In this document: in pieces, positions 36,514 to 64,000 of the stretch
Layout of the letters: every line of letters begins with the position of its first letter
Position numbering within the stretch: position 1 is the stretch's first letter
From: Naegleria gruberi
Taxonomy: Eukaryota
Length of the DNA stretch: 64,000 nt
Reading direction: 5' to 3' (one strand)
NCBI GenBank assembly: GCA_000004985.1
Contig: GG738877.1
Program-made: the position numbers and the translations under genes
Notes under the pieces: generated by a model
Databases searched by the model: none
What the model was told of the DNA's origin: nothing
Seen by the model: the letters and a program-made list of their open reading frames with translations, nothing else

Positions 36514-36560
36514 TTTTATTAATAATTGAAAAAAACAACTCAACTTACCTAACAACTTTC

Positions 36561-38204: not shown

Positions 38205-38237
38205 AACGCACCGTTTCAAAAATTCAAAATAAAAAAA

Positions 38238-39657: not shown

Positions 39658-39689
39658 TTTTTAAATTTAAAAAAAACAAAATAATTGAA

Positions 39690-40184
39690 ATGATGGAAAT
39701 CAGCAACACTCCCTCTTCAACATTTACAACTTTCGATCAAAACAAGGCTTGTTTGAAAACTCATGAAGAAGCAACTCACTCAAATCATGGTTGTTTAAAC
39801 AAGAAACATAAATTTGTATGTTTTTCTCAATTATGAAACTATTAACTCAATCAGAATCCACCCCTAATTTCAAATCATCATTCCAATGAGTATGAAACTG
39901 AATTAGATTATACAACTGAACAAGTCAATAGGAGAGATGTGGAAATTGAAAGGTTGAAAAAGTCTATTGAAACATTAAACAAGGCTTGTTTTGATGAGGA
40001 TGAAGAAGATGAATTGGATGACTTAATAGACAAATGGAGAGTAGCATGTCAGGAAATGATTTACACACTTGTTGATAAACTACAACCAACATCAGAGAGA
40101 ATGAGTTTGGGCAATTTACTCAATCATCTCGGAATTGATTATGATATTATTCATTACGATAAAGAAGAGGAGTCTTTCTACTGA
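39690..40184 (+). CDS. Swi5/Sae3-like small recombination-mediator protein; 2 exons
   Basis: Exon 1 is 39690-39815 (MMEISNTPSS…CLNKKHKF, 42 codons). A GTATGT donor opens a 39-nt intron (39816-39854) with a CAG acceptor. Exon 2 is 39855-40184 (110 codons including the stop). Both junctions are phase 0. The C-terminal part RRDVEIERLKKSIETLNK…DDLIDKWRVACQEMIYTLVDKLQPTSERMSLGNLLNHLGIDYD resembles Swi5 (coiled coil, then …YNEIRDIALGMIGKVAE…VELFDRFGV). The track only shows a GTG-initiated 81-aa ORF at 39939. Confidence 0.35.
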
Positions 40185-40257
40185 TTATTGATATGATGAT
40201 AATGGACCCATCATCGTGCAATAACAAACAAATAAAAAATTCCTTTATCACAACAGG

Positions 40258-41839: not shown

Positions 41840-41986
41840 ACAATGTATAGTATATGATTTTTGTGATCCTCTCTCTATCTCAACCTCATATCTGAGTTCA
41901 TCTATCACTTATTTGTCTTTGGCTATCATATTGTTCGTTATGATATTTTCCCGCCATCTGGCTTTACACTTTTTATTTTAAAAAAA

Positions 41987-43869: not shown

Positions 43870-43874
43870 ATTCT

Positions 43875-45698: not shown

Positions 45699-45905
45699 GA
45701 TGATCTTTTAAACACAACTCTAAGTTCTCTGTCTCTCTGATGATTGTATTTTTTTTAAAAATTAAAAATTCGGAACAAGGCTTGAAAAAATTCTCTCAAC
45801 ATTAATTCTTTTGATTCAGCCTCATTCTGCAGCATAGAGAAGGCTATTTTCTCTGAGATCCGATTATAATTTATTATATCATCATTTGTAAATTTTATAT
45901 TAACA

Positions 45906-48138: not shown

Positions 48139-48354
48139 TTAACATCATAATGACCTTTCAATTCACTCTCTCAACACTTCAAATTTGAATAACGAAAAAC
48201 TTTGTTTATATTATGAAATGATTGGAATTCTAATCACTTTCTATCCCATATATTGTCCACTTACCCATTAACTTCCAATCACGTTCAATCTAAAAATACA
48301 AAACAAAATATTGAAAAAAACATCACCAAACATCATCAAAAGGCTTTGAAAAGG

Positions 48355-49440
48355 ATGATGAATAATCAAAACCAACAACAACAAGGAACATTTCCATTTG
48401 ATAGTGCCATTCTATCTGATAATTCACAATATACCTATGGAGGAGAACAATCGTGTACATATATTTGTTTAACTGCTATTGAATACTTTTTAAATAATTA
48501 TTCCAAGTTTAGAATTCCGATTTCATCATCAACATCAAAAGATCTTAAAATTACAAAGAATGATATTGATTATGTATTACAATTAGGTGTTTCAAGAGAT
48601 AGAAAAGTTGGACTAACATCATGTGATGATGTTTATTCTAATAACGAATATTTTCAAAAAACACTTGAATTGAAATCAATGCACATTTCAAAATTAAGTG
48701 ATAGTCTTTCTTTTAAACAATTACTTAAAGAAATGGAATCAAAATCAATTGATACAAAATCATCAAGTGATGTAACTGCTCTAGTTTTAACTAAACCACC
48801 TGAAACTATTGCTATATTTTATGATTGTTATGGTTATTTAAATGGAAAAGAGAATGAATATTATCCATGGTTTATATTTGATTCACATCCAAGAAAATAT
48901 AGTAGAGGTGGTGGTTTTTATTTATTTAAGGATTTATCTAAAATTGAACAATATTTGAAAAAATTATTTATTGATGATTTTGATTATTATAGAAATATGT
49001 TTGATTCTTATCAAGCTAAATCTCATGTCATGTTTGAAGGTACTATTGTAACATTAAAACCTCTTTCAAATTTGAAAACTATTCAACCACCACAAACTGT
49101 AAATCAACCACAAATTGTAAATAGTCCAAGTCAACCAGTCAAACAAGAATCAAACATTCCAAATAATACTAATAATAATAGCACTCCAAAAGAATCTCAA
49201 AAACAAGTAATAGTTCAACAACAACCAGTAGATCAAAATCAATTGATTGAACAATTAATGAAAAAGATTGATCAATTAACACAAGTTAACAAACAACAAT
49301 TTGAAGAAATTCAAACACTTACCTACTTGTTAAAAGAAGAACAAGAAAATCATCAAAGAACTGCATTAGAAAATCAAAAGCTTAAAAAATCAACCAAACA
49401 ACAAGAAAATGTAATTGATAAGATTTTCTCTTCCTTTTAA
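48355..49440 (+). CDS. hypothetical protein with C-terminal coiled coil
   Basis: The track ORF starts at TTG 48253, and the first ATG is at 48355 (MMNNQNQQQQGTFPFD…). A Cys-containing middle region is followed by a Q/N-rich region and a coiled-coil tail. No domain was recognised. Confidence 0.35.
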   Translation: MMNNQNQQQQGTFPFDSAILSDNSQYTYGGEQSCTYICLTAIEYFLNNYSKFRIPISSSTSKDLKITKNDIDYVLQLGVSRDRKVGLTSCDDVYSNNEYFQKTLELKSMHISKLSDSLSFKQLLKEMESKSIDTKSSSDVTALVLTKPPETIAIFYDCYGYLNGKENEYYPWFIFDSHPRKYSRGGGFYLFKDLSKIEQYLKKLFIDDFDYYRNMFDSYQAKSHVMFEGTIVTLKPLSNLKTIQPPQTVNQPQIVNSPSQPVKQESNIPNNTNNNSTPKESQKQVIVQQQPVDQNQLIEQLMKKIDQLTQVNKQQFEEIQTLTYLLKEEQENHQRTALENQKLKKSTKQQENVIDKIFSSF

Positions 49441-49697
49441 TGACATTCTAATTTAAAATGTACATTTCCTTGGTGATGGTGTAAATAAACAAAATAACTT
49501 CAATCCATTAATGTAGTTTGCTTGGTTACTTCAAGAGTTATTTCTCCTCCTACTCCGATTAAAGGCTTGTTCGTTCTCCTCAATTTCAAATCTAAAAAAA
49601 TAACAACAACAAAATATCATTTTGCAATCATCTATTTTACTAGGAGAGATTGCTGATTTTTGGATTAAATTATTATAAAACCTCGAATCGGATCAAT

Positions 49698-50913
49698 ATG
49701 AAAAGATTATCAACAATCATATTTATAATTTCTTGTATTTTGTTATTCTTTACTTTAATAACATCAACAAAGGCTGATGATGATGGATTATGTTTAATGA
49801 CTAGTAATGGATTTGAGAATGGAACAAATAATTTCCCAACAGTTAAGAATAGTGTACCTTTTTATTTGGATCCACAAGCTTCATCATCTCTTGGAACAAT
49901 TTGTCCACATTTAGTTGGTCAAAAAGTTTGTTGTAATTCTACTCAAGTTTCTACAATGGTTTCTCGTTTTACACTTTTAGATGCAACGTATGTTGTTTTA
50001 ATATTATGTAATAGTTTTAATTGTTATATGAAATTGTGTTACAATGATTGTACAATCACATTTGGAATTTCATTGAACATTTGGATTAATCTATTGATTA
50101 ATATTTATCAAATATATTTTAATGATAATTGTTTTAATATTGATATGAAAAATTAGATTTTGGCGTTGTATTGCTTGTGTTTTAAATTTAAAGAAAATGT
50201 GGTGTGATTTTACATGCAGTAATCAACAAGGACATTTTCTTACCATTGAATCAATGTATGAAACACCAAAATATGCTCAATATATTAAGGAAGTTAATTT
50301 TTATGTTTCATTAGATTTCCAAAATCAAATTTGGGAAAGTTGTAAAGATGTTAAATTAGGTCAATTACCAGTTAAAGATACATATGCAAATGTTAGAGCT
50401 TATTTACAAGGAATGGTAAATTTAGCAGTTCCAAATCCAAATATTCAATACATTTTCCAAACAAGTGAATCACATCTTGAAAAACTTACAATTACAAAAA
50501 ATATTACAAAAACACCACTCAGATATGATCAATCACCAAATTATGAAGATATTTCAGTTCCATCAGTAGAACATTACAAAACTAGAAAAATTCAAGATTT
50601 CAATAATTCAACAACTCAATTTTATAATGGAACAATGTTAGCATGTGAATTATCATGTGATTGTACATATTGTGAAAAGGCTTGTGGAACAATTACACCT
50701 GATTATTCATGTAAAATCTTTGGATCACCATGTTTTGTTGTTGCATCAATTGGTGGAAGTGTTATTTTAGGTTTATTTATTATTGCAATCATTTCTGCTC
50801 TATTCGAAAGAGGTTTTAATTGGTTTAGAAATAGAAATAACAAAACGAATGAAAATATTGAAGTTAATCAAGAAAATTCTTTAAATTCAGATAGAAGATA
50901 TAGAACATTTTAA
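49698..50913 (+). CDS. stand-alone NPC1 N-terminal (sterol-binding) domain protein with single C-terminal TM; 2 exons
   Basis: ATG at 49698 with a signal peptide (MKRLSTIIFIISCILLFFTLITSTKA). Exon 1 ends at about 49985, and an AT-rich intron of about 200 nt precedes exon 2 (about 50190-50913). DGLCLMTSNGFENG…ICPHLVGQKVCCNSTQ…MWCDFTCSNQQGHFL…KEVNFYVSLDFQNQIWESCKDV…CELSCDCTYCEKAC parallels the human NPC1 NTD CVWYGECG…LCPGFFFGNVSLCCDVRQ…LFCELTCSPRQSQFL…[22 protein letters not shown]…CSCQDCSIVC. A TM helix follows (VVASIGGSVILGLFIIAIISALF), then a short tail and the stop. Confidence 0.55.
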
Positions 50914-50978
50914 TTTATTACCTTTTTGATATAAAAGTCACATTACCATTAAATAATAATAATAATCATAATATTACT

Positions 50979-52061
50979 ATGAATACTACCACAACAACAG
51001 CTCCTCAACAACTACTACAACAACCACAATTTATGAATAGTCCATCACTTCATTATAATAATTTACCTCCGGACCATATTCTCAATAAACAAAGATCTAA
51101 TATTAGTATTAAACAAATTAATAAGAATATTCAAACTATTACAAATAATACTAATACTAATAATAATACTAATACTACTAGTAATAATAATATAACATCA
51201 CCATCAATAATGAATATTCCACCTAATAATAATAATAATCCGATAACATCAATATTAAATAATAATAACAATTCAATAATGATGTTAAATAATGGTCAAC
51301 CAATAATAATGACAACATCAAATCAACAAATTAATGTTGGAGGAGGAGGTGATTTAATGTTACCTCCTAATAATAATAATAATATTATGAATAATAATAG
51401 CTCTAATTTAAATGTTAATAATAATTTAAATTCATCATTAAATTCAATCAATAATAATAATATCAATAATACTACTACTGAAAATAGTAATAATAATAAC
51501 AATTTAATATTAACAAATCGTACACAATTTTTACTTGATTCATCATCAATAATAAATAATGTAGAAATGTTATTTAATATTCGAATTGGAAATTCTAAAC
51601 AAATAGATATGGAAATTACTAAAAGTGGAAATGAAATTAAACATTATTCTAAATCATGTATTCATGATTTAGATTCACTTCAAAGATATTGGTCAGAATG
51701 TTATAGAATTGAAAGTGAACATTTAAATGATAAACCATTAATGTATATTCCAATTACAGGTTTAATTAATATTAAAGTATTTAAATTATTTAATAATATT
51801 CCAATAATGGAACATAATTTAGAAAAGAAATATGATTTTAGACAATCTGATTCTTTAATAGCTCCAATTAAATTTGATAATAATATTGTAATTGTTTTAA
51901 AATTAATGAAAATGGATTATGTTGAATTTATTGGTTTACAATCATTTGATTTTTATTTAATTAAATCATCACAATCTTCCACTTCTTCATCAACAATAAC
52001 ATTACAATCATCTTCCACTTCTTCCTCTTCAACTGGTCCAATTATTTTAAATAATCAATAA
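50979..52061 (+). CDS. hypothetical Asn-rich protein
   Basis: 360-aa ATG ORF. About 200 aa is N/T/S homopolymer-rich low complexity, encoded as (aat)n. The C-terminal 150 aa is globular-looking (…YWSECYRIESEHLNDKPLMYIPITGLINIKVFKLF…) with no recognised domain. Confidence 0.35.
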   Translation: MNTTTTTAPQQLLQQPQFMNSPSLHYNNLPPDHILNKQRSNISIKQINKNIQTITNNTNTNNNTNTTSNNNITSPSIMNIPPNNNNNPITSILNNNNNSIMMLNNGQPIIMTTSNQQINVGGGGDLMLPPNNNNNIMNNNSSNLNVNNNLNSSLNSINNNNINNTTTENSNNNNNLILTNRTQFLLDSSSIINNVEMLFNIRIGNSKQIDMEITKSGNEIKHYSKSCIHDLDSLQRYWSECYRIESEHLNDKPLMYIPITGLINIKVFKLFNNIPIMEHNLEKKYDFRQSDSLIAPIKFDNNIVIVLKLMKMDYVEFIGLQSFDFYLIKSSQSSTSSSTITLQSSSTSSSSTGPIILNNQ

Positions 52062-52230
52062 AATTCAAAAAATAAAATATTCAAACCCTTTCCATTCATA
52101 TTTTAAAAAGCTTTTAGCCTTTGATTTTGTTTTATTTTAATAATAAATTTTTGAAAGCCTTTAAAAAAAATTCATCAACATATCATATTTTAAACCAATA
52201 GCCTAAAACAATTCATCATCATCTTTAAAA

Positions 52231-52994
52231 ATGTCATCATCAAATGAAATTGAACAATCCAATGAATTGGAAGCACTCCAATCAATTTATCCAACAGAAT
52301 TAACTATTAATTCATCAACAAATTTTAAAATTGAAATTTATCCCTATACAGTCGAATCGGAAACAGAAACTAATAGTGTTGGTATTACATTGGAAGTTAA
52401 TTATACTCCTGATTATCCAGAATCAGTTATACCTTCATTTGAAATTTATAATACAAGAGGTTCTATTACAAAACGTGAAATGAGTGAATTAAAAGACATG
52501 TTAATAGAAACAGCTAATCAATTTTTAGGTACATCATGTGTATTTACTATTGCTAGTACAATTCAAGAATATTTAGTTCAATATCAACAACGTGAATCTG
52601 CTCTAAATGAACAAGATAATTCATCATCTTAACAACAAAGAATGATGAAACATCATCAAAGGATAGATTTACAATGGATTCTGAAGTATTAGCATCAAAT
52701 ATTGGACGAGGAACACCTGTTACTATTGAAAACTTTAGAGAGTGGCGTGATAAATTTGTTGTTGAACAAAAGAAAATTATGGAAAAACAAAGAATTGAAA
52801 AGGCTAAGAAATTACCAGGTCCTAAAAGTGGTAGAGAAATATTTGAAGAACGTCAACAACTTTTGATCAGTAAAATTGGTGAAGCAGCTGCTGCTAATCA
52901 ATACGTTGAAGAGGATGATATTGATGAAGATTTATTCTTGGAAGATGAAGATGAAGAAGAAGTCAATAATGAAGATGAACAAGATGAAGAATAA
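52231..52994 (+). CDS. RWD-domain protein (RWDD1/Gir2-like), copy A; reading frame broken by 1-nt deletion near 52630
   Basis: ATG at 52231. The N-terminal RWD domain is NELEALQSIYPTELTINSSTNFKIEIYPYTV…LEVNYTPDYPESVIPSFEIY. Track ORFs 52231-52632 and 52674-52994 are the two halves in frames differing by -1. Copy B (61946-62470) reads through as …NEQDNSSSLTTKNDETSSKDRF… with one extra base. The downstream part GTPVTIENFREWRDKF…AKKLPGPKSGREIFEE matches human RWDD1 GTPVTIENFLNWKAKF. Confidence 0.55.
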
Positions 52995-54354
52995 ACTATT
53001 TATACAGTTTATTTTGTTTATTATTATTGAAATATTTGTTGTTGGATTGTGAACTTTTGGTAATTCTTTCATCATTACAATTTTATTTAAAATTTAAAGA
53101 AAAATTCATCACAATCGATCAGCCTAAACAATTCACACAACAATAAGAAGTGCACTAAAATAATCGGAAGATGACATCTAATCAAATTAATCATAATGAA
53201 AATATCATAAATAATAACAACATGTTATTAGAAGAATTACCTAATGAAATACTTTGTTTAATATTAGATCATTTTGAATTTAAATTTCTATTTCACAATT
53301 ATAGATTAATATGTAAAAAATTTAATTTTATTATTTGTAATGAATTGAGATGTTCATGTTCAATTGTTAAAACTATGAATATAATTAATAGTGATGAAAA
53401 TATTAAATCTTTTATTTCATGTTGTGAAAATAATTGTTTAAATTCAATTACAAGTTTAAAAAATATTAAACCTCATAGTATGTTAATTATTTAATTATTT
53501 AATTANNNNNNNNNNNNNNNNNNNNNNNNNNNNNNNNNNNNNNNNNNNNNNNNNNNNNNNNNNNNNNNNNNNNNNNNNNNNNNNNNNNNNNNNNNNNNNN
53601 NNNNNNNNNNNNNNNNNNNNNNNNNNNNNNNNNNNNNNNNNNNNNNNNNNNNNNNNNNNNNNNNNNNNNNNNNNNNNNNNNNNNNNNNNNNNNNNNNNNN
53701 NNNNNNNNNNNNNNNNNNNNNNNNNNNNNNNNNNNNNNNNNNNNNNNNNNNNNNNNNNNNNNNNNNNNNNNNNNNNNNNNNNNNNNNNNNNNNNNNNNNN
53801 NNNNNNNNNNNNNNNNNNNNNNNNNNNNNNNNNNNNNNNNNNNNNNNNNNNNNNNNNNNNNNNNNNNNNNNNNNNNNNNNNNNNNNNNNNNNNNNNNNNN
53901 NNNNNNNNNNNNNNNNNNNNNNNNNNNNNNNNNNNNNNNNNNNNNNNNNNNNNNNNNNNNNNNNNNNNNNNNNNNNNNNNNNNNNNNNNNNNNNNNNNNN
54001 NNNNNNNNNNNNNNNNNNNNNNNNNNNNNNNNNNNNNNNNNNNNNNNNNNNNNNNNNNNNNNNNNNNNNNNNNNNNNNNNNNNNNNNNNNNNNNNNNNNN
54101 NNNNNNNNNNNNNNNNNNNNNNNNNNNNNNNNNNNNNNNNNNNNNNNNNNNNNNNGAATGATGAATTTCATCCATTTTTGAAAATTTAACAAATTTAGAA
54201 TCTTTAATTTTATCAAAAAATAATTTTAAGAAACTTGATTTTTCAAACTTAACAAAATTAGATTTAAATGGAAACAAAAATTTAGAATTTGTTGATTTAT
54301 CTAATTGTAAATTAACATATTTAGATTTATCATTTACTAAAATTGGAAGCGAAA
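52471..54354. repeat. duplicated block, copy A (continues to at least 54719 on this side)
   Basis: 52471-53505 matches 61946-62981, and 54156-54354 matches 63801-64000. The only differences are a 1-nt indel near 52630, a G/A substitution near 52663, and a 1-nt indel near 54170. The sequence corresponding to B 62982-63800 lies in A's N gap. Confidence 0.85.
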
Positions 54355-54719
54355 CAATTAAAACATTTAAAAATAATCCAATTAAATTTTTAAATTTACA
54401 AAAAATTGAAAAAATTGGAATTGAAAATTGTTTTTCAATTATTAATGAAATTACAACAATAACAGAATTAAATGTTTCAAATTGTAAAATTAATTTATTA
54501 CCAAAAAAGTGTCAATTAATTAATTTAAACAATTTTAATATTAGTAATAATTCATTAAATGACACGACTTTGGAATATTTTAAACAATTAACAAGAATTA
54601 GAAAATTAAATATTTATAGTAATAAGTTTAGTGATAATGGAAGAGATGAATTAAATAATAATTTTAAAAATATTGAAGAATTTATTTATTATTATAAAGA
54701 TTTTAAATATATTTTTTAA
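53171..54719 (+). CDS. F-box / leucine-rich-repeat protein, copy A (exon 2 mostly inside the 53506-54155 gap; 1-nt deletion at about 54170)
   Basis: Exon 1 is 53171-53477 (MTSNQINHNEN…LPNEILCLILDHFEFKFLF…, F-box-like) with a GTATGT donor. Exon 2 resumes after the gap at 54156 and runs to TAA at 54717-54719 (…LDLSFTKIGSETIKTFKNNPIKFLNLQKIEKIGIENC…KLNIYSNKFSDNGRDEL…). Relative to copy B it lacks one T in the gaattt(t)catcc run. Confidence 0.5.
53506..54155. other. assembly gap (650 N) inside F-box/LRR gene copy A
   Basis: The N run is seen directly. Copy B shows the missing sequence is about 819 nt of intron and LRR exon. Confidence 0.95.
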
Positions 54720-55402
54720 ATTATCTCCACAAGAACATTTTCCACACAATTCTCATAAGAGATTGATTATTATTGAATAAAAAGACATGGTGGCTAAATT
54801 TTTTCAGAATGATATTTTCTTCTCAGTTGCATCTGTATGAACTTGGTGAGACTCATTCTTAAATCTGATCCATAGCCAGCATTACTAATTTCAGGCTGAT
54901 TTTTCAATCATCTCCCTTTCTTTTCGTTAATTTTTGGGAGGTTGTTCCAATAATCATTCTATTGTAGTAATTGATATTATAGTTTCAAGAGTCTTTACTT
55001 GCTGTTGGATTTAGCCGTAACTTGGCAAAGAATCACATACTTGATTTTTACTTCCGGAATTTCACACTCTCTTTTTATTGAGGAGGAATTGAGTTTACAA
55101 AACACGCAAACTAGGCATTGAGCGTTCGTTGGTTCAAAATCCTCACTCTGAATTTTCTCAACAAGGCTTGAGACAAAATGCGCTGAAAGAACTTGGCAAA
55201 AAAAATTTCAACAACATCAACACTCAACCACCACTACCACGAAGATGCTCAAGAGAATCCTGACTCCAAGAAATTTGAAGGCTTGTTCTTCAACAACAAC
55301 AACACACAGACATAACACTTCAACTATTATAACAGCAACAACAACAATTAGCAAACGTTTCTTGAATACTGAATTAATAACCTGTAGTGAAAGGGCTTTC
55401 AA

Positions 55403-56572
55403 TTGAATGAAGAACAATTACAATATCAACAATTAGCTAAAGATTTTTGTAACAAACATTTTCCATCACATGAAGTATCGGAATGGGATCGTAATAAAAC
55501 ATTCCCAGTTGATACATTACGTCAAGCAGCAGAATTAGGATTTGGTGGTATTTATGTATCAAGTGAATTTGGTGGTACAGGTTTAAGTAGACTTGATGCA
55601 TCAATTATATTTGAACAATTAGCAATGGGTGATGTTTCAACAACAGCCTATTTAACTATTCATAATATGTGTTGTTGGATGATTGATCAATATGGTTCAA
55701 TTAATCAAAAAGAGAAATATTTACCATCATTATGTAGTATGGAAACAATGTCAAGTTATTGTTTAACTGAACCTAATAGTGGTAGTGATGCTGGTTCATT
55801 GAGAACTATTGCACGTACATTGGATGGTGGTAAAACTTTTACATTGAGTGGTGAAAAGGCTTTCATTTCAGGTGGTGGAAATTCTGATGTTTATTTAATT
55901 ATGGCAAGAGTTATGGATAATGATAAGGATTTGGGTATTACTTGTTTTATTGTTGAAAAGAATAGTGAAGGTTTATCATTTGGTAAGAATGAAATTAAGA
56001 TGGGTTGGAATACTCAACCAACACGTGCTGTTATTATGGATTCAGTTAAAGTTACATCTGATAATATTTTAGGTAGTGTTGGTGAAGGTTTTAAAATTGC
56101 AATGCAAGGTCTTGATGGTGGTAGAATTAATATTGCAACTTGTAGTGTTGGTGGTGCTCAACAATGTTTAAATATGGCAGGTGAATATCTTCATACAAGA
56201 AAACAATTTGGAAAAACACTTTCAAATTTCCAATATTTACAATTTAAATTAGCTGATATGGCAACTAGAGTTCATGCTTCAAGATTAATGGTTAGATCTG
56301 CTGCAACTCAATTAGGTATTGAAAAATCTTCACATTCAACTGCTTTTTGTGCAATGGCTAAACGTTTTGCAACTGATGAATGTTTTGATGTTGTAAATGA
56401 TTCTTTACAAATGTTTGGTGGATATGGTTATCTTAATGAATATGGTGTTGAAAGATATTTGCGTGATTTACGTGTTCATTGTATTTTAGAAGGTACAAAT
56501 GAAGTTATGAGATTAATTACTTCACGTTATTATTTAAATTTATATAAGGATGGTGGTGTGAGTAATAATTAA
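55403..56572 (+). CDS. acyl-CoA dehydrogenase, isobutyryl-CoA dehydrogenase (ACAD8)-type, mature-region ORF
   Basis: The track ORF starts at TTG 55403. NEEQLQYQQLAKDFCNKHFPSHEVSEWDRNKTFPVDTLRQAAELGFGGIYVSSEFGGTGLSRLDASIIFEQLAMGDVSTTAYLTIHNMCCWMIDQYG…YCLTEPNSGSDAGSL…GYGYLNEYGVERYLRDLRVHCILEGTNEVMRLITSRYY aligns along its length with human ACAD8 ([22 protein letters not shown]…[55 protein letters not shown]…). A presequence-like ATG ORF (55245-55403) lies upstream in a different frame (see findings). Confidence 0.75.
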   Translation: MNEEQLQYQQLAKDFCNKHFPSHEVSEWDRNKTFPVDTLRQAAELGFGGIYVSSEFGGTGLSRLDASIIFEQLAMGDVSTTAYLTIHNMCCWMIDQYGSINQKEKYLPSLCSMETMSSYCLTEPNSGSDAGSLRTIARTLDGGKTFTLSGEKAFISGGGNSDVYLIMARVMDNDKDLGITCFIVEKNSEGLSFGKNEIKMGWNTQPTRAVIMDSVKVTSDNILGSVGEGFKIAMQGLDGGRINIATCSVGGAQQCLNMAGEYLHTRKQFGKTLSNFQYLQFKLADMATRVHASRLMVRSAATQLGIEKSSHSTAFCAMAKRFATDECFDVVNDSLQMFGGYGYLNEYGVERYLRDLRVHCILEGTNEVMRLITSRYYLNLYKDGGVSNN

Positions 56573-56756
56573 TTTATTGAAAATCAAAAGGTTGGTTCCT
56601 TTTCAACAAAACCTCAATAAAATTACATTTTTGATTTTAGATTACTGAATTCCAAAACACACAATTTCATAGCTTCCTTCTAGATTTCAAAGAAGGATTT
56701 AATCTCTGTATCTTAATTCTTTAATTGTTCCAATTTTAAATGGAATTTGAAAAAAA

Positions 56757-58895
56757 ATGTTTAGCCTTCCAGATGGAGACGATGATGAATCATCCATTGG
56801 CTCACCTTCATCACCTCCAATATCTACATTGGCATGCTTAGACTCTCCAATTAATTCACCATCACCTCCAATGTCTCCAATTATTACCTTTAAATCTTCA
56901 TCATCACTAAATAATAATACAAAAAACAAAAAGGCTTTGAATTCTCCACCCTCTCGGAAAACTAGTAAATCGAATATTATTAATAATCAACACCAATATA
57001 ACAACAGCATACAAGAGGCTAACAAGAAGAATAGTAATGATAAAAATGATAATGTACATTATAATGTAAATCTGACACAAAATAAGTGGAGTAAATTATT
57101 ACAAAGTAATATTGATATTCAACAAACACAACAAGATATGAAAAGATCTTTTATTAGAGGAGGAGGTGGTAAAACAAATTCATTCAATCATAATAGTAAT
57201 AATAGTAATAATAATAATAATAATATGAAAAGAAAGAAGGAATATTCAAAGAATGATGATGAAGATGATTTAATTAGTCCATTGAAATATTTAGAAGATA
57301 TTCAATTTTCTCAAATTCCTTCTTCTTTAATGACTTCAAATCAATCATCAAATAACAATGAATTAAAATTAGATTTAAATGATCAAGATATGAATGATTC
57401 ATTTCTAAATGATGATTTTTCATTAGATGATATTAGTAATGAAGAAATTGCAAAACTTCAAACAAAATCAAATGAAAATACTAAAAATAGTAATAATATT
57501 TTTTTATCAAAATTTAAAATTACACCAGATAAGAAAAAATCACCAAATTTAAATTCAACAAAATCATCCTCATCTACTACACCTACATCTAATAATTCAA
57601 CAACACCTGAACAATCATCAATTGAAAAGAAACCTAAACAAGTTTTTAAAATTAAAAATAATGCTGATAGAAAATCAATGGAAAGATCAAAAAACAAATT
57701 TGAAAATTGGTTAAAAACAAGTAATTCAACTAGTCCTGATAAAACTCATCAAATTTTGGATGAAAATAGTGAACATTTAAATCAAGAATCAAATCATTGT
57801 AATGATAATAATAGTAATGATAATGTGTTGGAACAGAACGATGGAGAGAAAATTACTGATAAAAATGTAAATAATAATGAAAATGTTAATATGGAAATTA
57901 GTAATGATAATGAAAATAATCAAAAAAAAAGAAAATTAATTACAAAAGGAACTTTAACAATTAAGAAAAAGAAGACTAGTAGTAGTAATAATGAAAATAT
58001 TACAACAACAAATCAACAAGATAATACTACATTATCTAATATACCAATGACTACATCCACTACAAATAGTCATCAAGATGATGAATCAATAACAACAAGT
58101 ACAATTGTAACGGAAGATAAATCAGAAAAGATAATTAAAAAGAAATCAAATCATGATAAAACCAAATCTAAAAAATCTAAAATTGAAAAAATTAAAATAT
58201 ATGAAAAATATAATGATAATGCAGATGGATTATGTTTTTCAATGGGAGAAGAATGTATACAATGTAATTATTGGAATGATAAAGAAATGATTGAAAATGG
58301 AATTAATTCATTAAATGAATATAAATGTACAAAATGTAATTCTATATTTATACCTTGTTTATTAATACAATATGATAATGATAATATTAAAGATAATTTA
58401 ATAATAGAAAATGAATATAAAATTAAATTCATGTCTAGAGATTTTATTTTAACAGAAATGAAATTATTTAAAAAATTAACATCAAAATTAATTTATGAAA
58501 AGAATTTAAATTTATTTTATAATTTACTTTATCATTTTGGAAGTATTAATGAAGGTATTAATTTCTATCAATCTAATAAGAAGAAACAAAGTAAAAAACA
58601 ATCATCAACAAATACTAAACAAGTAGTTAATAGTAGTAGTATCAGTAGTACTGGTAGTAGTAATACTATTTCTGAACCATTATCTAATAGTACTAACACT
58701 GGTAAACAATCATCATCATCAACAAGTAAATCATCTGAACAATCACCTTCTTCTTCATCAAAAAGTAAACAATCTAATAAGGAATCAAAAAAGAAAAGTG
58801 AATCTACATCTCCAAGTAATGAAAAAACATCTAAAAAGAAAAAAACAACAAGTATTGTAAAAGGACAAAAGAGTTTATTTGATTTTATCAAGTAA
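56757..58895 (+). CDS. hypothetical Asn/Ser/Lys-rich protein with Cys-rich module
   Basis: 712-aa ATG ORF, mostly low complexity. A Cys-containing segment GLCFSMGEECIQCNYWNDKEMIENGINSLNEYKCTKCNSIFIPC (CxxC…CxxC) precedes a globular-looking stretch (…FYNLLYHFGSINEGINFYQ…). Confidence 0.4.
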   Translation: MFSLPDGDDDESSIGSPSSPPISTLACLDSPINSPSPPMSPIITFKSSSSLNNNTKNKKALNSPPSRKTSKSNIINNQHQYNNSIQEANKKNSNDKNDNVHYNVNLTQNKWSKLLQSNIDIQQTQQDMKRSFIRGGGGKTNSFNHNSNNSNNNNNNMKRKKEYSKNDDEDDLISPLKYLEDIQFSQIPSSLMTSNQSSNNNELKLDLNDQDMNDSFLNDDFSLDDISNEEIAKLQTKSNENTKNSNNIFLSKFKITPDKKKSPNLNSTKSSSSTTPTSNNSTTPEQSSIEKKPKQVFKIKNNADRKSMERSKNKFENWLKTSNSTSPDKTHQILDENSEHLNQESNHCNDNNSNDNVLEQNDGEKITDKNVNNNENVNMEISNDNENNQKKRKLITKGTLTIKKKKTSSSNNENITTTNQQDNTTLSNIPMTTSTTNSHQDDESITTSTIVTEDKSEKIIKKKSNHDKTKSKKSKIEKIKIYEKYNDNADGLCFSMGEECIQCNYWNDKEMIENGINSLNEYKCTKCNSIFIPCLLIQYDNDNIKDNLIIENEYKIKFMSRDFILTEMKLFKKLTSKLIYEKNLNLFYNLLYHFGSINEGINFYQSNKKKQSKKQSSTNTKQVVNSSSISSTGSSNTISEPLSNSTNTGKQSSSSTSKSSEQSPSSSSKSKQSNKESKKKSESTSPSNEKTSKKKKTTSIVKGQKSLFDFIK

Positions 58896-59187
58896 TTTTT
58901 GAATGATCAGTTTTAACCAAACATTTAACATGTGATTTGCAGGTAGGAGAATTGAGAACTGTTTCAAGGCAGGTTATACCAGATTGAATTGGTGGTAGCT
59001 TATCAATATAAGGTTACGCAATACTTTAAAGATGTAAAATGTAATTTCAAGAATTTAGAAATAAAAGTTGCGACCTTGTTTGTCTATATTCCAAAAAGGA
59101 TTCATCTTTCTTCAATCACAACTTTTAGCCAATCAAAGAATCTTATCCTCAATAATAATTAGTCCAAACCAGTTTATTTGAATTTAT

Positions 59188-60384
59188 NNNNNNNNNNNNN
59201 NNNNNNNNNNNNNNNNNNNNNNNNNNNNNNNNNNNNNNNNNNNNNNNNNNNNNNNNNNNNNNNNNNNNNNNNNNNNNNNNNNNNNNNNNNNNNNNNNNNN
59301 NNNNNNNNNNNNNNNNNNNNNNNNNNNNNNNNNNNNNNNNNNNNNNNNNNNNNNNNNNNNNNNNNNNNNNNNNNNNNNNNNNNNNNNNNNNNNNNNNNNN
59401 NNNNNNNNNNNNNNNNNNNNNNNNNNNNNNNNNNNNNNNNNNNNNNNNNNNNNNNNNNNNNNNNNNNNNNNNNNNNNNNNNNNNNNNNNNNNNNNNNNNN
59501 NNNNNNNNNNNNNNNNNNNNNNNNNNNNNNNNNNNNNNNNNNNNNNNNNNNNNNNNNNNNNNNNNNNNNNNNNNNNNNNNNNNNNNNNNNNNNNNNNNNN
59601 NNNNNNNNNNNNNNNNNNNNNNNNNNNNNNNNNNNNNNNNNNNNNNNNNNNNNNNNNNNNNNNNNNNNNNNNNNNNNNNNNNNNNNNNNNNNNNNNNNNN
59701 NNNNNNNNNNNNNNNNNNNNNNNNNNNNNNNNNNNNNNNNNNNNNNNNNNNNNNNNNNNNNNNNNNNNNNNNNNNNNNNNNNNNNNNNNNNNNNNNNNNN
59801 NNNNNNNNNNNNNNNNNNNNNNNNNNNNNNNNNNNNNNNNNNNNNNNNNNNNNNNNNNNNNNNNNNNNNNNNNNNNNNNNNNNNNNNNNNNNNNNNNNNN
59901 NNNNNNNNNNNNNNNNNNNNNNNNNNNNNNNNNNNNNNNNNNNNNNNNNNNNNNNNNNNNNNNNNNNNNNNNNNNNNNNNNNNNNNNNNNNNNNNNNNNN
60001 NNNNNNNNNNNNNNNNNNNNNNNNNNNNNNNNNNNNNNNNNNNNNNNNNNNNNNNNNNNNNNNNNNNNNNNNNNNNNNNNNNNNNNNNNNNNNNNNNNNN
60101 NNNNNNNNNNNNNNNNNNNNNNNNNNNNNNNNNNNNNNNNNNNNNNNNNNNNNNNNNNNNNNNNNNNNNNNNNNNNNNNNNNNNNNNNNNNNNNNNNNNN
60201 NNNNNNNNNNNNNNNNNNNNNNNNNNNNNNNNNNNNNNNNNNNNNNNNNNNNNNNNNNNNNNNNNNNNNNNNNNNNNNNNNNNNNNNNNNNNNNNNNNNN
60301 NNNNNNNNNNNNNNNNNNNNNNNNNNNNNNNNNNNNNNNNNNNNNNNNNNNNNNNNNNNNNNNNNNNNNNNNNNNNNNNNNNNN
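59188..60384. other. assembly gap (1197 N)
   Basis: The N run is seen directly. It lies between the 56757-58895 gene and tRNA-Gln. Confidence 0.95.
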
Positions 60385-60575
60385 TGATATTATTAATTTG
60401 GAAAATGAAAGAAATAATTTAAATATGAATAATAGTGATTATATTAAATATTGTAATTTAGTTCCTTTTAGATTGGTACCTTTTATTTATTAGAAATAAA
60501 ATTGTATTTGTAATTATGTATGTAGATTTAATGATTAGTTTATCAAATATGGTTTATCAACTAATTTTATGTGCT

Positions 60576-60646
60576 CGTCTCGTGGTGTAATGGTAGCATA
60601 GTGGACTTTGAATCCATTGACGGAGGTTCGATTCCTCCCGAGACGG
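60576..60646 (+). tRNA. tRNA-Gln (anticodon UUG)
   Basis: The sequence is CGTCTCGTGGTGTAATGGTAGCATAGTGGACTTTGAATCCATTGACGGAGGTTCGATTCCTCCCGAGACGG. The acceptor stem is CGTCTCG/CGAGACG. The D-arm GGTGTAATGGTAGCA and the anticodon arm GTGGA-CTTTGAA-TCCAT match eukaryotic tRNA-Gln(TTG). The T-arm is GGAGGTTCGATTCCTCC. Confidence 0.8.
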
Positions 60647-60991
60647 TAACGTGGCGAGCCATGAAATTTTTCTTTGCATTTGTTTAAGGAATGAACTTTG
60701 GCATATTACTACTAATGGCCCTATCATGACTAAGCACCAAAAGAGTTCATCACAAGAGAGTGTTGTAAATATTTTCAAATGTTGTATGATGGATAAAAAG
60801 CCGAAATATAGAAACTTTTCATACTTCTTCTCTTGAAGGAGAGAACACTTCCAATTTTGAAACTACATATTTGATAGGTGGAAAACAATGGAGATGCATT
60901 TTCTTCTCAAAAAAACAACTCTACACCTACTGCATCTATTAGAGTGCATTCTGATTTTTTCAAAACATTTCATTAGAGGATAATAGAGACA

Positions 60992-61895
60992 ATGTCTGCA
61001 CAAAAAACATGGTTCCTTCATCATTCTCCCGAAGAGAATAATAGTAGTGGTAGTGATATTTGTAGTCCAAGTATTCCTTCTTCTACTACTACTATTACAA
61101 GTAATCATCATCATGATAATGGTAATGATAATAATAGTGATATTCATGCAACTAAATGTACAAGATATACCAATACTATTTTAATATATGTTAATGGTAT
61201 TAGATATTTAATTGATCATCCAAATCCTGAACAAACACTTGGTGATTATTTAAGAGTAAATTTACAATTAACTGGTACTAAAATTGGTTGTTCTGAAGGT
61301 GGTTGTGGTGCTTGTGTTGGTATGTTTTTAATATTTAATTTAATATTCAATATATTTAATATTTAATATTTAATATTTATTTAATATATTTAAAATATAA
61401 TAGTAATGATATCACATTATGATCATCAATTGAATAGAATAATTAATAGAAGTGTTAATGCATGTTTATATCCATTAATTGCAGCTGATGGATATCATAT
61501 TGTTACTGTTGAAGGTGTTGGTACTACAAGAGATGATATGTTACATTTAATACAACAAAGAGTTAGATTATTTCATGCTAGTCAATGTGGTTTTTGTACT
61601 CCTGGTATGTTATTATTTTAATTTTATTTTAATTTTATTATTTTATTTTATTATAATATTAATAATTTAATATTAAATTTACTAAATATAGGATTTATAA
61701 TGTCTTTATATGTTTTATTAAGAAATAATCCACATCCTACTTTAGAAGATGTTGAAAGATCACTTGATGGTAATTTATGTAGATGTACTGGTTATAGACC
61801 GTATGTAATTTAATTATTATTAATATTTAATTAATATTTATTTAATATTTACAATTTAATAGTATTTTGGATGCAGCAAGATCAATTATTGAAGA
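60992..61895 (+). CDS. xanthine dehydrogenase / aldehyde oxidase family, N-terminal 2Fe-2S region; 4 exon segments, truncated by the 61896-61945 gap
   Basis: Exons are 60992-61319, 61404-61604, 61692-61800 and 61863-61895+. The introns (84, 87 and 62 nt) all have GTATGT donors and TAG or AAG acceptors, and the phases are consistent with the track ORFs 60992 and 61406. The encoded protein is …[47 protein letters not shown]|[68 protein letters not shown]|[36 protein letters not shown]|[10 protein letters not shown]. These are the ferredoxin-type and [2Fe-2S]-binding domains of XDH. Confidence 0.7.
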
Positions 61896-61945
61896 NNNNN
61901 NNNNNNNNNNNNNNNNNNNNNNNNNNNNNNNNNNNNNNNNNNNNN
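61896..61945. other. assembly gap (50 N) truncating the xanthine dehydrogenase gene and abutting duplicated block copy B
   Basis: The N run is seen directly. The sequence on the two sides belongs to unrelated genes (XDH exon 4 versus the RWD-protein C-terminus). Confidence 0.95.
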
Positions 61946-62470
61946 AAACGTGAAATGAGTGAATTAAAAGACATGTTAATAGAAACAGCTAATCAATTTT
62001 TAGGTACATCATGTGTATTTACTATTGCTAGTACAATTCAAGAATATTTAGTTCAATATCAACAACGTGAATCTGCTCTAAATGAACAAGATAATTCATC
62101 ATCATTAACAACAAAGAATGATGAAACATCATCAAAAGATAGATTTACAATGGATTCTGAAGTATTAGCATCAAATATTGGACGAGGAACACCTGTTACT
62201 ATTGAAAACTTTAGAGAGTGGCGTGATAAATTTGTTGTTGAACAAAAGAAAATTATGGAAAAACAAAGAATTGAAAAGGCTAAGAAATTACCAGGTCCTA
62301 AAAGTGGTAGAGAAATATTTGAAGAACGTCAACAACTTTTGATCAGTAAAATTGGTGAAGCAGCTGCTGCTAATCAATACGTTGAAGAGGATGATATTGA
62401 TGAAGATTTATTCTTGGAAGATGAAGATGAAGAAGAAGTCAATAATGAAGATGAACAAGATGAAGAATAA
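61946..62470 (+). CDS. RWD-domain protein (RWDD1-like), copy B, 5'-truncated by gap, intact frame
   Basis: Continuous frame …KREMSELKDMLIETANQFLGTSCVFTIASTIQEYLVQYQQRESALNEQDNSSSLTTKNDETSSKDRFTMDSEVLASNIGRGTPVTIENFREWRDKF…EDEQDEE* ending at 62468-62470. The track ORF 61871-62470 is extended through the N gap in a frame unrelated to the XDH exon upstream. Confidence 0.5.
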   Translation, partial: KREMSELKDMLIETANQFLGTSCVFTIASTIQEYLVQYQQRESALNEQDNSSSLTTKNDETSSKDRFTMDSEVLASNIGRGTPVTIENFREWRDKFVVEQKKIMEKQRIEKAKKLPGPKSGREIFEERQQLLISKIGEAAAANQYVEEDDIDEDLFLEDEDEEEVNNEDEQDEE

Positions 62471-62646
62471 ACTATTTATACAGTTTATTTTGTTTATTAT
62501 TATTGAAATATTTGTTGTTGGATTGTGAACTTTTGGTAATTCTTTCATCATTACAATTTTATTTAAAATTTAAAGAAAAATTCATCACAATCGATCAGCC
62601 TAAACAATTCACACAACAATAAGAAGTGCACTAAAATAATCGGAAG

Positions 62647-64000
62647 ATGACATCTAATCAAATTAATCATAATGAAAATATCATAAATAATAACAACATG
62701 TTATTAGAAGAATTACCTAATGAAATACTTTGTTTAATATTAGATCATTTTGAATTTAAATTTCTATTTCACAATTATAGATTAATATGTAAAAAATTTA
62801 ATTTTATTATTTGTAATGAATTGAGATGTTCATGTTCAATTGTTAAAACTATGAATATAATTAATAGTGATGAAAATATTAAATCTTTTATTTCATGTTG
62901 TGAAAATAATTGTTTAAATTCAATTACAAGTTTAAAAAATATTAAACCTCATAGTATGTTAATTATTTAATTATTTAATTAATTTTTGTAATTTTTAAAA
63001 GGCTTGTTAAAGAAAATTCATTTATTAAAAAATTTAACAAATTTAGAAATTTCAAATTGTAATTTAAAATTAATTCAAATAGAAAATTTACAACATTTAC
63101 AAAATTTAACTTGTCATTTTGGAGATGATTATAAAAATACTTCAAATTTAGTACTTAATTTTAAAAATTTAAAATCATTAAATATTAATTATTTTACAAA
63201 AGATACTTTATCTAAAATGGCAAATTTAAATTTAGAAAAATTAATTCTTTCTTATAATGTTATGGAAGATGATTTAGAAAATTTAACTTTAAATAGCAAT
63301 TTAAAATATTTACACATTTCAAATATTTATAATTTAAATGGAAAACAAATTTATAAATTTAAAAATTTAAATTTTTTAAAATTAACTAATTATACTAAAT
63401 TGGATGAAAAAGAATTAAATCAATTTTATAAATCTTTATTAGAATTAAAATATTTAAAAAATATTGAATTTTATCTTACATTAACTGATGAATTTTTTAA
63501 TTATTGTAATCAATTACCATCTTTAGCAAGTTTAATATTACATAATGGTATTAATAATGGTATTAATAGTATTAATATTAATAATAATAATTTAAAAAAT
63601 TTAGAAATTTATTGCGATTCTTTAAAAAATTTAAAAATTTCAAATAATTTACAAAATTTAAATTTAAATTGTAAAAATATTGAAAATGTTGAATTTAATT
63701 CAATTAAAAATTTACAAATTTCAAATTCTAATTTTAATTGTATTAAAAATGTTGATAATTTAACAAAAACAACAAATTTAAGTTTAACTAACATGTCAAT
63801 GAATGATGAATTTTCATCCATTTTTGAAAATTTAACAAATTTAGAATCTTTAATTTTATCAAAAAATAATTTTAAGAAACTTGATTTTTCAAACTTAACA
63901 AAATTAGATTTAAATGGAAACAAAAATTTAGAATTTGTTGATTTATCTAATTGTAAATTAACATATTTAGATTTATCATTTACTAAAATTGGAAGCGAAA
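62647..64000 (+). CDS. F-box / leucine-rich-repeat protein, copy B (runs off window end)
   Basis: Exon 1 is 62647-62953. A GTATGT donor opens a 48-nt intron (62954-63001) with an AAG acceptor. Exon 2 runs from 63002 to beyond 64000. It is stop-free, which is why it is absent from the ORF track, and it encodes about 330 aa of LRRs (…NLTNLEISNCNLKLIQIENLQHLQNL…LKSLNINYFTKDTL…NLKYLHISNIYNL…NLKNLEIYCDSLKNLKISNNLQNLNLNC…LTNLESLILSKNNFKKLDFSNLTKLDLNGNKNLEFVDLSNCKLTYLDLSFTKIGSE). Confidence 0.5.

What the first reader, a model, noticed from the sequence alone, without database searches (positions are those of the whole stretch)
52471..64000. Near-identical two-gene block present twice 9.5 kb apart, with the first copy frameshifted twice
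52471-53505 plus 54156-54354 (copy A) and 61946-64000 (copy B) carry the same RWD-protein C-terminus and the same F-box/LRR gene, with more than 99.7% identity across about 1.2 kb of alignable sequence. The only differences are a 1-nt indel near 52630 that splits the RWD ORF in copy A, a G/A substitution near 52663, and a 1-nt indel in a T-run near 54170 that breaks the LRR exon in copy A. Copy B starts directly after a 50-N gap and supplies exactly the sequence missing in copy A's 650-N gap. There are three possible readings: redundant placement of an alternative contig or haplotype (assembly artefact, with homopolymer sequencing errors in A), a very recent tandem segmental duplication in which copy A is decaying into pseudogenes, or allelic haplotigs. 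Either way the gene models in copy A should not be trusted as pseudogenes without checking.
Basis: seen in the sequence. Interest (0 to 1): 0.6.

Follow-up and report, generated by a model that had tools for sequence, protein, structure and literature searches.

The report
Redundant contig mimicking a gene duplication
The apparent 9.5-kb duplication in this Naegleria gruberi draft scaffold is most likely one locus assembled twice, and the "frameshifts" in the first copy are most likely base-calling errors or allelic differences that have already corrupted three public protein records.

Summary
52471-53505 and 54156-54354 (copy A) match 61946-64000 (copy B) with 3 differences in 1236 aligned columns. 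B's 819 nt at 62982-63800 bridge A's 650-N gap.

The window is the Naegleria gruberi NEG-M draft scaffold of 394.7 kb.

Copy B is a contig that starts right after a 50-N placeholder. Everything visible in it either duplicates A or fills A's gap. It sits in the middle of a xanthine-dehydrogenase gene.

Splicing B into A restores a 254-aa RWD/DFRP protein, the same length as its N. fowleri and N. lovaniensis orthologues, and an intact 556-aa F-box/LRR-like ORF. Both relatives carry this RWD gene once at the syntenic locus, next to ACAD8.

The broken copy is the ancestral, full-length one. One indel lies 8-10 nt from a contig edge. The only substitution is synonymous. The neighbouring single-copy ACAD8 also carries a 1-nt frameshift.

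Verdict: a false (assembly) duplication, about 0.8. Base-call errors and an allelic haplotig cannot be told apart here. A real tandem duplication (about 0.17) cannot be excluded without reads.

Consequence: XP_002675571.1 lacks 29 aa, XP_002675574.1 is an XDH::RWD chimera, and XP_002675572.1 is N-terminally truncated. Interest is low.

The parts
52471..53505 (+). Copy A, part 1. This is the last 1035 nt of contig X (34800-53505). It holds RWD codons 81-254, the spacer, and F-box exon 1 plus 28 nt of its intron. The contig ends inside a perfect (TTAATTAT)x2.9 repeat.
53506..54155 (.). 650-N scaffold gap inside the F-box/LRR gene of copy A. The true fill, judged from copy B, is 819 nt at 13% GC.
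54156..54354 (+). Copy A, part 2. This is the first 199 nt of contig Y (54156-59187). The T-run indel lies at 54163-54165, 8-10 nt from the contig edge. The LRR ORF continues to its stop at 54717-54719.
61896..61945 (.). 50-N placeholder gap between the XDH N-terminal fragment (contig Z) and copy B. The supposed duplication junction would lie here and is unsequenced.
61946..64000 (+). Copy B, the visible part of contig W. 61946-62981 equals A part 1. 62982-63800 is the 819-nt filler for A's gap. 63801-64000 equals A part 2. No base here is unique to a second locus.
52231..52994 (+). RWD/DFRP-type gene (RWD + DFRP_C domains) at the ancestral locus. It reads as 133-aa and 106-aa ORFs because one A is missing at 52628/52629. 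With B's base it is a single 254-aa ORF.
61946..62470 (+). Copy-B version of RWD codons 81-254, in one open frame to the stop. It has no N-terminal RWD domain and no start of its own.
62647..64000 (+). F-box-like/LRR-like gene in copy B. Exon 1 is 62647-62953, the intron is 62954-63001, and exon 2 starts at 63002 and runs off the window. Joined to A 54355-54716 it gives an intact 556-aa ORF.
53171..53477 (+). F-box exon 1 in copy A, identical to B 62647-62953.
60992..61895 (+). N-terminal exons of a xanthine dehydrogenase-type gene (Fer2 + Fer2_2 domains), cut mid-exon by the 50-N gap. The FAD and molybdopterin parts are not in the window.
55245..56572 (+). Isobutyryl-CoA dehydrogenase (ACAD8), single copy in the window. 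It has its own 1-nt frameshift at about 55392-55399, between the mitochondrial presequence and the enzyme body.

Best explanation
This is a false (assembly) duplication. One genomic locus of Naegleria gruberi NEG-M, RWD gene then F-box/LRR gene then ACAD8, is represented twice in the draft scaffold.

Inferred sequence of events:
1. The assembler could not carry contig X through the extremely AT-rich F-box intron and LRR coding sequence. The fill is 13% GC, and X stops inside a TTAATTAT repeat. This left a gap estimated at 650 N.
2. A separate contig, W, assembled from other reads of the same stretch, was never merged with X and Y.
3. The scaffolder parked W 9.5 kb downstream behind a minimum-size 50-N gap, where it interrupts a xanthine-dehydrogenase gene.

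The three A/B differences are therefore not divergence between paralogues. The T-run indel at the edge of contig Y is almost certainly a base-call error. The missing A and the synonymous G/A, 33 nt apart, are either a low-quality read tail (favoured, roughly 5:3) or a difference between the two haplotypes of this heterozygous strain.

Neither gene in copy A is a decaying pseudogene. The biologically correct sequence is A with B spliced in.

Shown: the identity, the coordinates, the gap-bridging, the restored ORFs, single copy of RWD at the syntenic locus in relatives, and the mis-annotated public proteins. Inferred: the cause of the non-merge and the misplacement.
For: 1. The window is the N. 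gruberi scaffold of 394,700 bp. ACAD8 is 100% identical to XP_002675572.1.

2. Copy B begins on the first base after a 50-N run. All of its visible 2055 nt either match A or fill A's gap, so it has no unique flank and no sequenced junction.

3. B is colinear with both edges of A's gap. Its 819-nt fill joins X's F-box exon 1 and intron start to Y's LRR exon as one intact 556-aa ORF. The 650-N estimate is of the same order as 819.

4. [quoted passage not shown] The linker that B keeps open (VQYQQ...) aligns with theirs.

5. In both relatives this RWD gene occurs once within the roughly 20-kb syntenic locus, directly upstream of ACAD8.

6. The broken copy is the ancestral full-length one, and B lacks the RWD domain. 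If A's frameshift were real, this conserved gene would be left without an intact full-length copy in either block.

7. Two of the 3 differences are 1-nt indels. One is 8-10 nt from a contig edge. The other two differences lie 842-877 nt from the end of contig X, about one Sanger read length. The single substitution is synonymous.

8. Single-copy ACAD8 in contig Y has its own 1-nt frameshift, shown by alignment to the N. lovaniensis protein. Local base-call quality is therefore poor.

9. The region is unusually fragmented: three gaps in 10 kb and contigs of 5.0 and 1.5 kb, against a contig N50 of 159.7 kb. It is also AT-rich.

10. Gaps between duplicated pairs on one scaffold are a recognised signature of false duplications, which were highest in Sanger-based assemblies among those compared (PMC9516828). 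N. gruberi is reported as heterozygous (PMC9928731).
Against: - The scaffolder put W after contigs Y and Z rather than in the X-Y gap. A real tandem duplication of 52471-61895 would predict exactly this order. It would also predict contig breaks at the end of Z and the start of W, because those would be repeat boundaries.
- A 1035-nt overlap at 99.8% identity would normally be merged by an overlap assembler. Failure to merge could mean the reads were flagged as repeat because of double depth.
- The synonymous G/A could be a true paralogous difference.
- No reads, depth, or mate-pair data were available, and the sequence beyond 64000 could not be retrieved.
Confidence: 0.8

Rival explanations
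1. Real, very recent tandem segmental duplication of about 9.5 kb (52471-61895). Its left breakpoint is inside the RWD gene and its right breakpoint is inside XDH. The junction XDH-N|RWD-C would lie in the 50-N gap. The assembler collapsed most of the two copies and broke contigs at the repeat boundaries. The indels in A would still be base-call errors.
For: - The scaffold order X, Y, Z, W and the coincidence of Z's end and W's start with the would-be junction.
- The minimum-size 50-N gap fits contigs that really abut.
- Failure to merge a 99.8% overlap is what a repeat-aware assembler does with double-depth sequence (inference).
- Placement of contigs Y and Z is independently supported by synteny. 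The 3' end of ERG4/ERG24 lies at 60386-60490, as downstream of the 805/817-aa gene in the relatives. W was therefore not simply dropped among misplaced scraps.
Against: - No base of junction sequence exists, and W has no unique flank in the window.
- A direct Z|W abutment would not be in frame (reading).
- Both relatives show RWD once at the syntenic locus.
- Only one N. gruberi ACAD8 protein was found. This is weak evidence, because the search tool misses known hits.
- False duplications next to gaps are frequent in Sanger drafts.
Confidence: 0.14
2. Real duplication in which copy A is genuinely decaying. The two frameshifts in A are true mutations, and the RWD and F-box/LRR genes of A are young pseudogenes.
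For: Both frame-breaking indels are in A, and B is open throughout.
Against: - A is the only copy with the RWD domain, the start codon, and the ancestral upstream synteny. B is a 5'-truncated fragment placed behind XDH. Decay of A would leave no intact full-length copy, in either block, of a gene conserved in all Naegleria sampled.
- There is no excess of substitutions. The single substitution is synonymous.
- One indel is 8-10 nt from a contig edge.
- ACAD8, single copy and 81% identical to its orthologue, has the same kind of lesion.
Confidence: 0.03
3. This is a sub-case of the best explanation. W is the other haplotype of the same locus (a heterotype false duplication), and the missing A at 52628/9 is a real heterozygous null allele of the RWD gene carried by the clonally propagated lab strain.
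For: - N. gruberi is reported as heterozygous.
- The missing A and the synonymous G/A lie 33 nt apart, in the interior of contig X and outside any homopolymer. That is compatible with a haplotype block.
- Heterotype duplications were the main class of false duplication in the Sanger-era assemblies analysed.
Against: - Only 0.24% divergence is usually too little to stop contigs merging.
- An indel-dominated spectrum (2 of 3) is unusual for alleles in coding sequence.
- The third difference is at a contig edge.
- The nearby ACAD8 frameshift points to local base-call error.
Confidence: 0.3

Closest known systems
False duplications in draft assemblies (heterotype = uncollapsed haplotypes; homotype = under-collapsed because of read errors), as characterised by Ko et al. 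2022, PMC9516828. Earlier described by Kelley and Salzberg 2010 (cited in that paper; otherwise from my own knowledge).
   Same: - Near-identical copies on one scaffold, separated and bounded by N gaps.
- One copy is a small contig with no unique sequence.
- The assembly appears to be Sanger-era and the strain is reported as heterozygous.
- The artefact produces false gene gain and a chimeric gene model.
   Different: The redundant contig is not adjacent to its twin. It lies two contigs (about 9.5 kb) downstream. The depth, k-mer and mate-pair criteria that define the class could not be tested here.
Recent tandem segmental duplication with a chimeric junction gene
   Same: - Direct orientation and a 9.5-kb period.
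- Breakpoints inside two genes.
- Very high identity.
   Different: - The junction is not sequenced.
- The second copy has no independent flank.
- The lesions sit in the parental copy rather than the derived one.
- Relatives show one copy at the syntenic locus.
Young pseudogenes (duplicated, disabled copies)
   Same: Frame-breaking 1-nt indels occur in otherwise intact ORFs.
   Different: - There is no sign of relaxed constraint: the single substitution is synonymous.
- The disabled copy would be the only full-length one.
- Lesions of the same type occur at a contig edge and in a neighbouring single-copy conserved gene.

Membership tests
False (assembly) duplication | Near-identical copies on the same scaffold with N gaps between or around them | tested here: met
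   99.76% identity over 1236 columns. Copy B starts at a 50-N gap, and copy A is interrupted by a 650-N gap. The criterion is from PMC9516828.
False (assembly) duplication | The redundant copy has no unique sequence or flank of its own and is colinear with its twin, including across the twin's gap | tested here: met
   All 2055 visible nt of W match A or bridge A's gap, restoring one 556-aa ORF. Sequence beyond 64000 was not visible.
False (assembly) duplication | Haploid or sub-haploid read depth on each copy; discordant mate pairs; haplotype-specific k-mers | not testable with these tools
   No reads are available. N. gruberi contigs are not on record in the look-up of encoding contigs.
Real tandem/segmental duplication | A sequenced junction joining the end of copy 1 to the start of copy 2 | tested here: not met
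   The would-be junction (XDH exon 4 | RWD codon 81) is the 50-N run 61896-61945.
Real tandem/segmental duplication | Each copy embedded in its own distinct flanking sequence within contiguous sequence | tested here: inconclusive
   A has its upstream flank within contig X. B has no upstream flank, and its downstream end is outside the window.
Real tandem/segmental duplication | Doubled read depth relative to flanks | not testable with these tools
   No reads available.
Pseudogene (copy A) | The disabling lesion is real, i.e. reproduced in independent reads | not testable with these tools
   Exact look-ups of intact or broken forms found no independent N. gruberi sequence.
Pseudogene (copy A) | Relaxed constraint (accumulated substitutions, non-synonymous changes) and a functional copy elsewhere | tested here: not met
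   One substitution in 1236 nt, and it is synonymous. Copy B lacks the RWD domain and a start codon.
RWD/DFRP-type protein (the gene's identity) | N-terminal RWD domain plus C-terminal DFRP_C region | tested here: met
   Pfam RWD, E = 6.8e-21. DFRP_C scores 25.9 bits, just under its 27.5 cut-off, in the reconstructed 254-aa protein, and 30.0 bits in P0254. Orthologues carry both domains.
Xanthine dehydrogenase/oxidase (upstream neighbour of B) | Fer2 + Fer2_2, followed by FAD-binding and molybdopterin domains | tested here: inconclusive
   Only Fer2 and Fer2_2 are present. The gene is cut by the gap, and the rest is not in the window.

The most novel reading that the evidence does not exclude
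A real, extremely young 9.5-kb tandem duplication in N. gruberi NEG-M, possibly heterozygous or arisen during laboratory propagation. Its junction would place the 2Fe-2S N-terminus of xanthine dehydrogenase upstream of the C-terminal DFRP-binding half of the RWD protein, creating a new chimeric transcription unit. Under this reading the public model XP_002675574.1 would be approximately right rather than an artefact.
Probability: 0.1. Interest if true: 0.35.

Novelty: not a real feature. Interest (0 to 1): 0.1.

Why it matters
The value is for curation, not new biology. The redundancy and the local base-call errors have propagated into public databases in four ways:
- XP_002675571.1 / D2VKA4 is an RWD protein missing 29 internal residues.
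- XP_002675574.1 / D2VKA7 has an unnatural Fer2-Fer2_2-DFRP_C architecture. Domain-fusion ("Rosetta stone") or gene-family analyses could read it as a novel fusion.
- XP_002675572.1 / D2VKA5 is an ACAD8 without its targeting peptide or the start of its N-terminal domain.
- I found no model for the F-box/LRR gene. The accession numbering leaves no room for one at copy A, and exact look-ups of my reconstructions failed.

The presence and integrity of xanthine dehydrogenase in N. gruberi cannot be judged from this scaffold. This is a clean worked example of why near-identical duplicates next to N gaps should not be scored as gene gains or as pseudogenes.

Tried and rejected
**Seeing past 64000 or finding independent N. 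gruberi DNA.**
- The look-up of encoding contigs with window ORFs and with the N. gruberi proteins P0002, P0241 and P0254 gave "not on record".
- Exact look-ups were tried for the intact 254-aa RWD, two guesses of an intact ACAD8, the 556-aa F-box/LRR protein with alternative starts, and several window ORFs. None is in the collection.
- As a result, no independent N. gruberi sequence could be found to test whether the A-type bases are real, and the extent of contig W stays unknown.

**Homology searches.**
- The search with the full RWD protein timed out twice. A shortened query worked.
- The XDH N-terminus search returned no Naegleria protein and only short proteins.
- The same tool failed to list P0254, although P0254 contains long identical stretches. 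Negatives from that tool, for example "only one N. gruberi ACAD8", are therefore treated as weak.

**Window-wide frameshift count.** I tried a heuristic for frame changes without a GTATG or GTAAG donor, to estimate the base-error rate. I rejected it as unreliable. The flagged acyl-CoA oxidase junction at about 23259 is an ordinary intron with a GTAGGT donor.

**Other checks.**
- Rfam found only the tRNA.
- There is no tRNA in the syntenic loci of the relatives.
- Flanks of the four gaps do not overlap each other, so the meaning of "50 N" as a floor value remains an inference.
- The original genome paper and a review were not held in the library.
- The affected accession numbers appear in no held paper.


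Full report
**1. What is in the sequence.**
Reading the two stretches, blastn, exact repeat search and a base-by-base alignment confirm the finding.
- Window 52471-53505 matches 61946-62981 over 1036 columns, with one substitution and one 1-nt gap.
- Window 54156-54354 matches 63801-64000 over 200 columns, with one 1-nt gap.
- Overall identity is 99.76%.

The three differences are:
- An 'A' present in B (62104) and absent in A between 52628 and 52629.
- G in A (52661) against A in B (62137).
- TTT in A (54163-54165) against TTTT in B (63808-63811).

The window has four N runs: 34750-34799 (50), 53506-54155 (650), 59188-60384 (1197) and 61896-61945 (50). These define contigs I call X (34800-53505), Y (54156-59187), Z (60385-61895) and W (61946 to at least 64000).

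W starts exactly where the similarity starts. W's 819 nt at 62982-63800 bridge the X-Y gap. No other repeat of 60 nt or more exists in the window.

**2. Where the window comes from.**
The acyl-CoA dehydrogenase ORF at 55406-56572 is 100% identical to a Naegleria gruberi protein carried on a 394,700-bp contig. Exact look-up gives EFC42828.1 / XP_002675572.1, strain NEG-M. N. gruberi has 1977 contigs in 784 scaffolds with a contig N50 of 159.7 kb (PMC6125883). I take it to be the 2010 JGI Sanger draft. That rests on my own knowledge, because the genome paper was not held.

The last 20 kb of the window is therefore unusually fragmented. It is also more AT-rich than the first 44 kb: 24-26% GC in the tail of X, in Y and in Z, 19% in W, and 13% in the gap-filling piece, against 32-33% upstream. 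Contig X ends inside a perfect (TTAATTAT)x2.9 repeat in an intron.

**3. The genes.**
- *RWD gene.* 52231-52994 encodes an RWD + DFRP_C protein. In A it reads as two ORFs of 133 and 106 aa. With B's extra A it is one ORF of 254 aa.
- *F-box/LRR gene.* Downstream lies an F-box-like gene with leucine-rich-repeat-looking sequence. The F-box hit is marginal and the LRRs are seen by eye only. Exon 1 is 62647-62953, a 48-nt GTATGT...AG intron follows at 62954-63001, and exon 2 starts at 63002. B's sequence continued by A's 54355-54716 gives an intact 556-aa ORF. In A the T-run indel shifts the frame 8-10 nt after the contig edge.
- *Neighbours.* Next come ACAD8 (55245-56572), a 712-aa ORF, the 1197-N gap, the last 35 codons of an ERG4/ERG24 sterol reductase (60386-60490), tRNA-Gln (60575-60647), and the first four exons of a xanthine-dehydrogenase-type gene (60992-61895; Fer2 and Fer2_2 domains). 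That last gene is cut mid-exon by the 50-N run.

**4. Comparison with relatives.**
The syntenic loci of N. lovaniensis (L001) and N. fowleri (L002) read: NPC1_N, SNF2 helicase, three further genes, RWD (254 aa), ACAD8, an 805/817-aa gene, ERG4/ERG24, CRT-like.
- RWD occurs once within each fetched locus, immediately upstream of ACAD8.
- The order Y, gap, Z in the window is syntenic, because the ERG4/24 3' end is at the start of Z.
- The F-box/LRR gene has no counterpart in either fetched locus.
- In a protein alignment, the A-plus-B reconstruction and the orthologues share a continuous linker (…EYLVQYQQ… / …EFLIKYQQ…) followed by the invariant DRFTMD motif.

The frame that B keeps open is therefore the ancestral one.

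**5. What the public annotation did with this.**
- P0241 (XP_002675571.1, NAEGRDRAFT_69324, 225 aa) is the copy-A RWD model. It lacks exactly the 29 residues around the indel, meaning an intron was invented to restore the frame.
- P0254 (XP_002675574.1, NAEGRDRAFT_69327, 358 aa) is a chimera. The XDH N-terminus is spliced across the last XDH mini-exon and the 50-N gap onto copy-B RWD residues from TIQEYL to the stop. Pfam finds Fer2, Fer2_2 and DFRP_C in it.
- P0002 (XP_002675572.1, 315 aa) is ACAD8 starting at an internal Met.
- GenBank numbers run consecutively along the scaffold: 42827 RWD-A, 42828 ACAD8, 42830 the chimera. This leaves no F-box/LRR model at copy A.

**6. A further frameshift outside the duplication.**
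ACAD8's presequence ORF (55245-55406, …KRFLNTELITCSERAFN*) is homologous to N. lovaniensis …QRFLSSANQELITHSEQFNLTPEQ…. The enzyme body (…FQLNEEQLQYQQLAKDF…) follows in another frame with no room for an intron. A 1-nt deletion at about 55392-55399 is therefore present in a single-copy gene that is 81% identical to its orthologue.

That makes three frame-breaking 1-nt lesions within 3 kb, spread over the tail of X and the start of Y. This argues for poor local base-calling rather than gene decay.

**7. Interpretation.**
The simplest account is that W is a redundant contig of the same locus as the X tail, the gap, and the Y head. The supporting points are:
- W has no unique sequence and no sequenced junction.
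- It is colinear with both edges of A's gap.
- Splicing it in yields two intact genes, one of them exactly the length of its orthologues.
- It interrupts another gene behind a placeholder gap.
- The "damaged" copy is the ancestral, only full-length one.
- The difference spectrum is two indels plus one synonymous change, with one indel at a contig edge and the other two differences 842-877 nt (about one Sanger read) from the end of X. This is what read-end errors look like and not what paralogue divergence looks like.

Gaps between duplicated pairs on one scaffold are a recognised signature of false duplications, which were highest in the Sanger-based assemblies compared (PMC9516828).

I cannot separate base-call error from an allelic haplotig. 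N. gruberi is reported to be heterozygous (PMC9928731). I lean towards error for all three sites, about 5:3.

**8. What speaks for a real duplication.**
A tandem duplication of 52471-61895 would give exactly the order X, Y, Z, W, contig breaks at the end of Z and the start of W, and a near-zero gap. An assembler that sees double depth would refuse to merge 99.8%-identical overlaps. Placement of Y and Z is confirmed by synteny, so W was not simply dropped among misplaced scraps. I therefore keep about 0.17 for a real duplication. Nearly all of that is with A's indels still being errors. Only about 0.03 goes to true pseudogenisation of A.

**9. Limits.**
I could not retrieve the scaffold beyond 64000, any read data, or any independent N. 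gruberi assembly. The homology tool missed a protein it should have found (P0254), so its negatives carry little weight. Public Nanopore reads of NEG-M exist and would settle the question in minutes.

**10. Verdict.**
The most likely explanation is an assembly false duplication with local sequence errors (0.8). It has little biological interest (0.1) but clear curation value, because at least three public protein records are wrong as a result.

Noticed in passing
window 55245-55410 (lesion at about 55392-55399): Single-copy isobutyryl-CoA dehydrogenase (ACAD8) has a 1-nt frameshift between its mitochondrial presequence and the enzyme body. This is shown by alignment to the N. lovaniensis orthologue. 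The public model XP_002675572.1 starts at an internal Met and lacks about 125 N-terminal residues.
   Followed up: yes
window 60992-62470, spanning the 50-N gap: Public protein XP_002675574.1 / D2VKA7 / NAEGRDRAFT_69327 (358 aa) is a computational chimera. The XDH 2Fe-2S N-terminus is spliced across the gap onto the copy-B RWD C-terminus, giving the architecture Fer2 + Fer2_2 + DFRP_C.
   Followed up: yes
window 59188-60493: The start of contig Z (60386-60490) encodes the last 35 residues of an ERG4/ERG24 sterol reductase (…YCNLVPFRLVPFIY*). The 1197-N gap therefore hides most of that gene, which is about 1.7-1.8 kb in N. lovaniensis and N. fowleri.
   Followed up: partly
window 60575-60647 (+) and 22410-22490 (-): tRNA-Gln(UUG) lies between ERG4/24 and XDH, and tRNA-Ser(GCU) lies upstream. 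Neither relative has a tRNA in the syntenic 20 kb.
   Followed up: partly
window 53171-55230 versus L001 9871-10001 and L002 10765-10829: The F-box/LRR gene, plus an ORF-free stretch that looked somewhat more GC-rich by eye (54720-55230), sits between RWD and ACAD8 in N. gruberi only. In N. lovaniensis and N. fowleri the two genes are 130 and 64 nt apart. This looks like a lineage-specific insertion whose origin was not examined.
   Followed up: no
window 49650-52231 versus L001 1-9100: Between the NPC1_N gene and RWD, the relatives carry an SNF2-family helicase, a 354-363-aa gene, and a minus-strand gene of 515-529 aa. All three are absent here. Only the counterpart of the 510-524-aa gene remains, as the 360-aa ORF at 50979-52061. 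Local gene order therefore differs between N. gruberi and the N. fowleri/N. lovaniensis pair.
   Followed up: no
window 60992-61895; No Naegleria xanthine dehydrogenase other than the chimeric fragment turned up in either protein search. The relatives have a CRT-like gene where N. gruberi has tRNA-Gln and XDH. It is unclear whether N. gruberi has a complete XDH and whether the relatives lack one.
   Followed up: no
window 44000-64000 versus 1-44000: GC drops from about 33% to 19-26% (13% in the LRR coding fill) over the last 20 kb. This coincides with the cluster of gaps, small contigs and frameshifts.
   Followed up: partly
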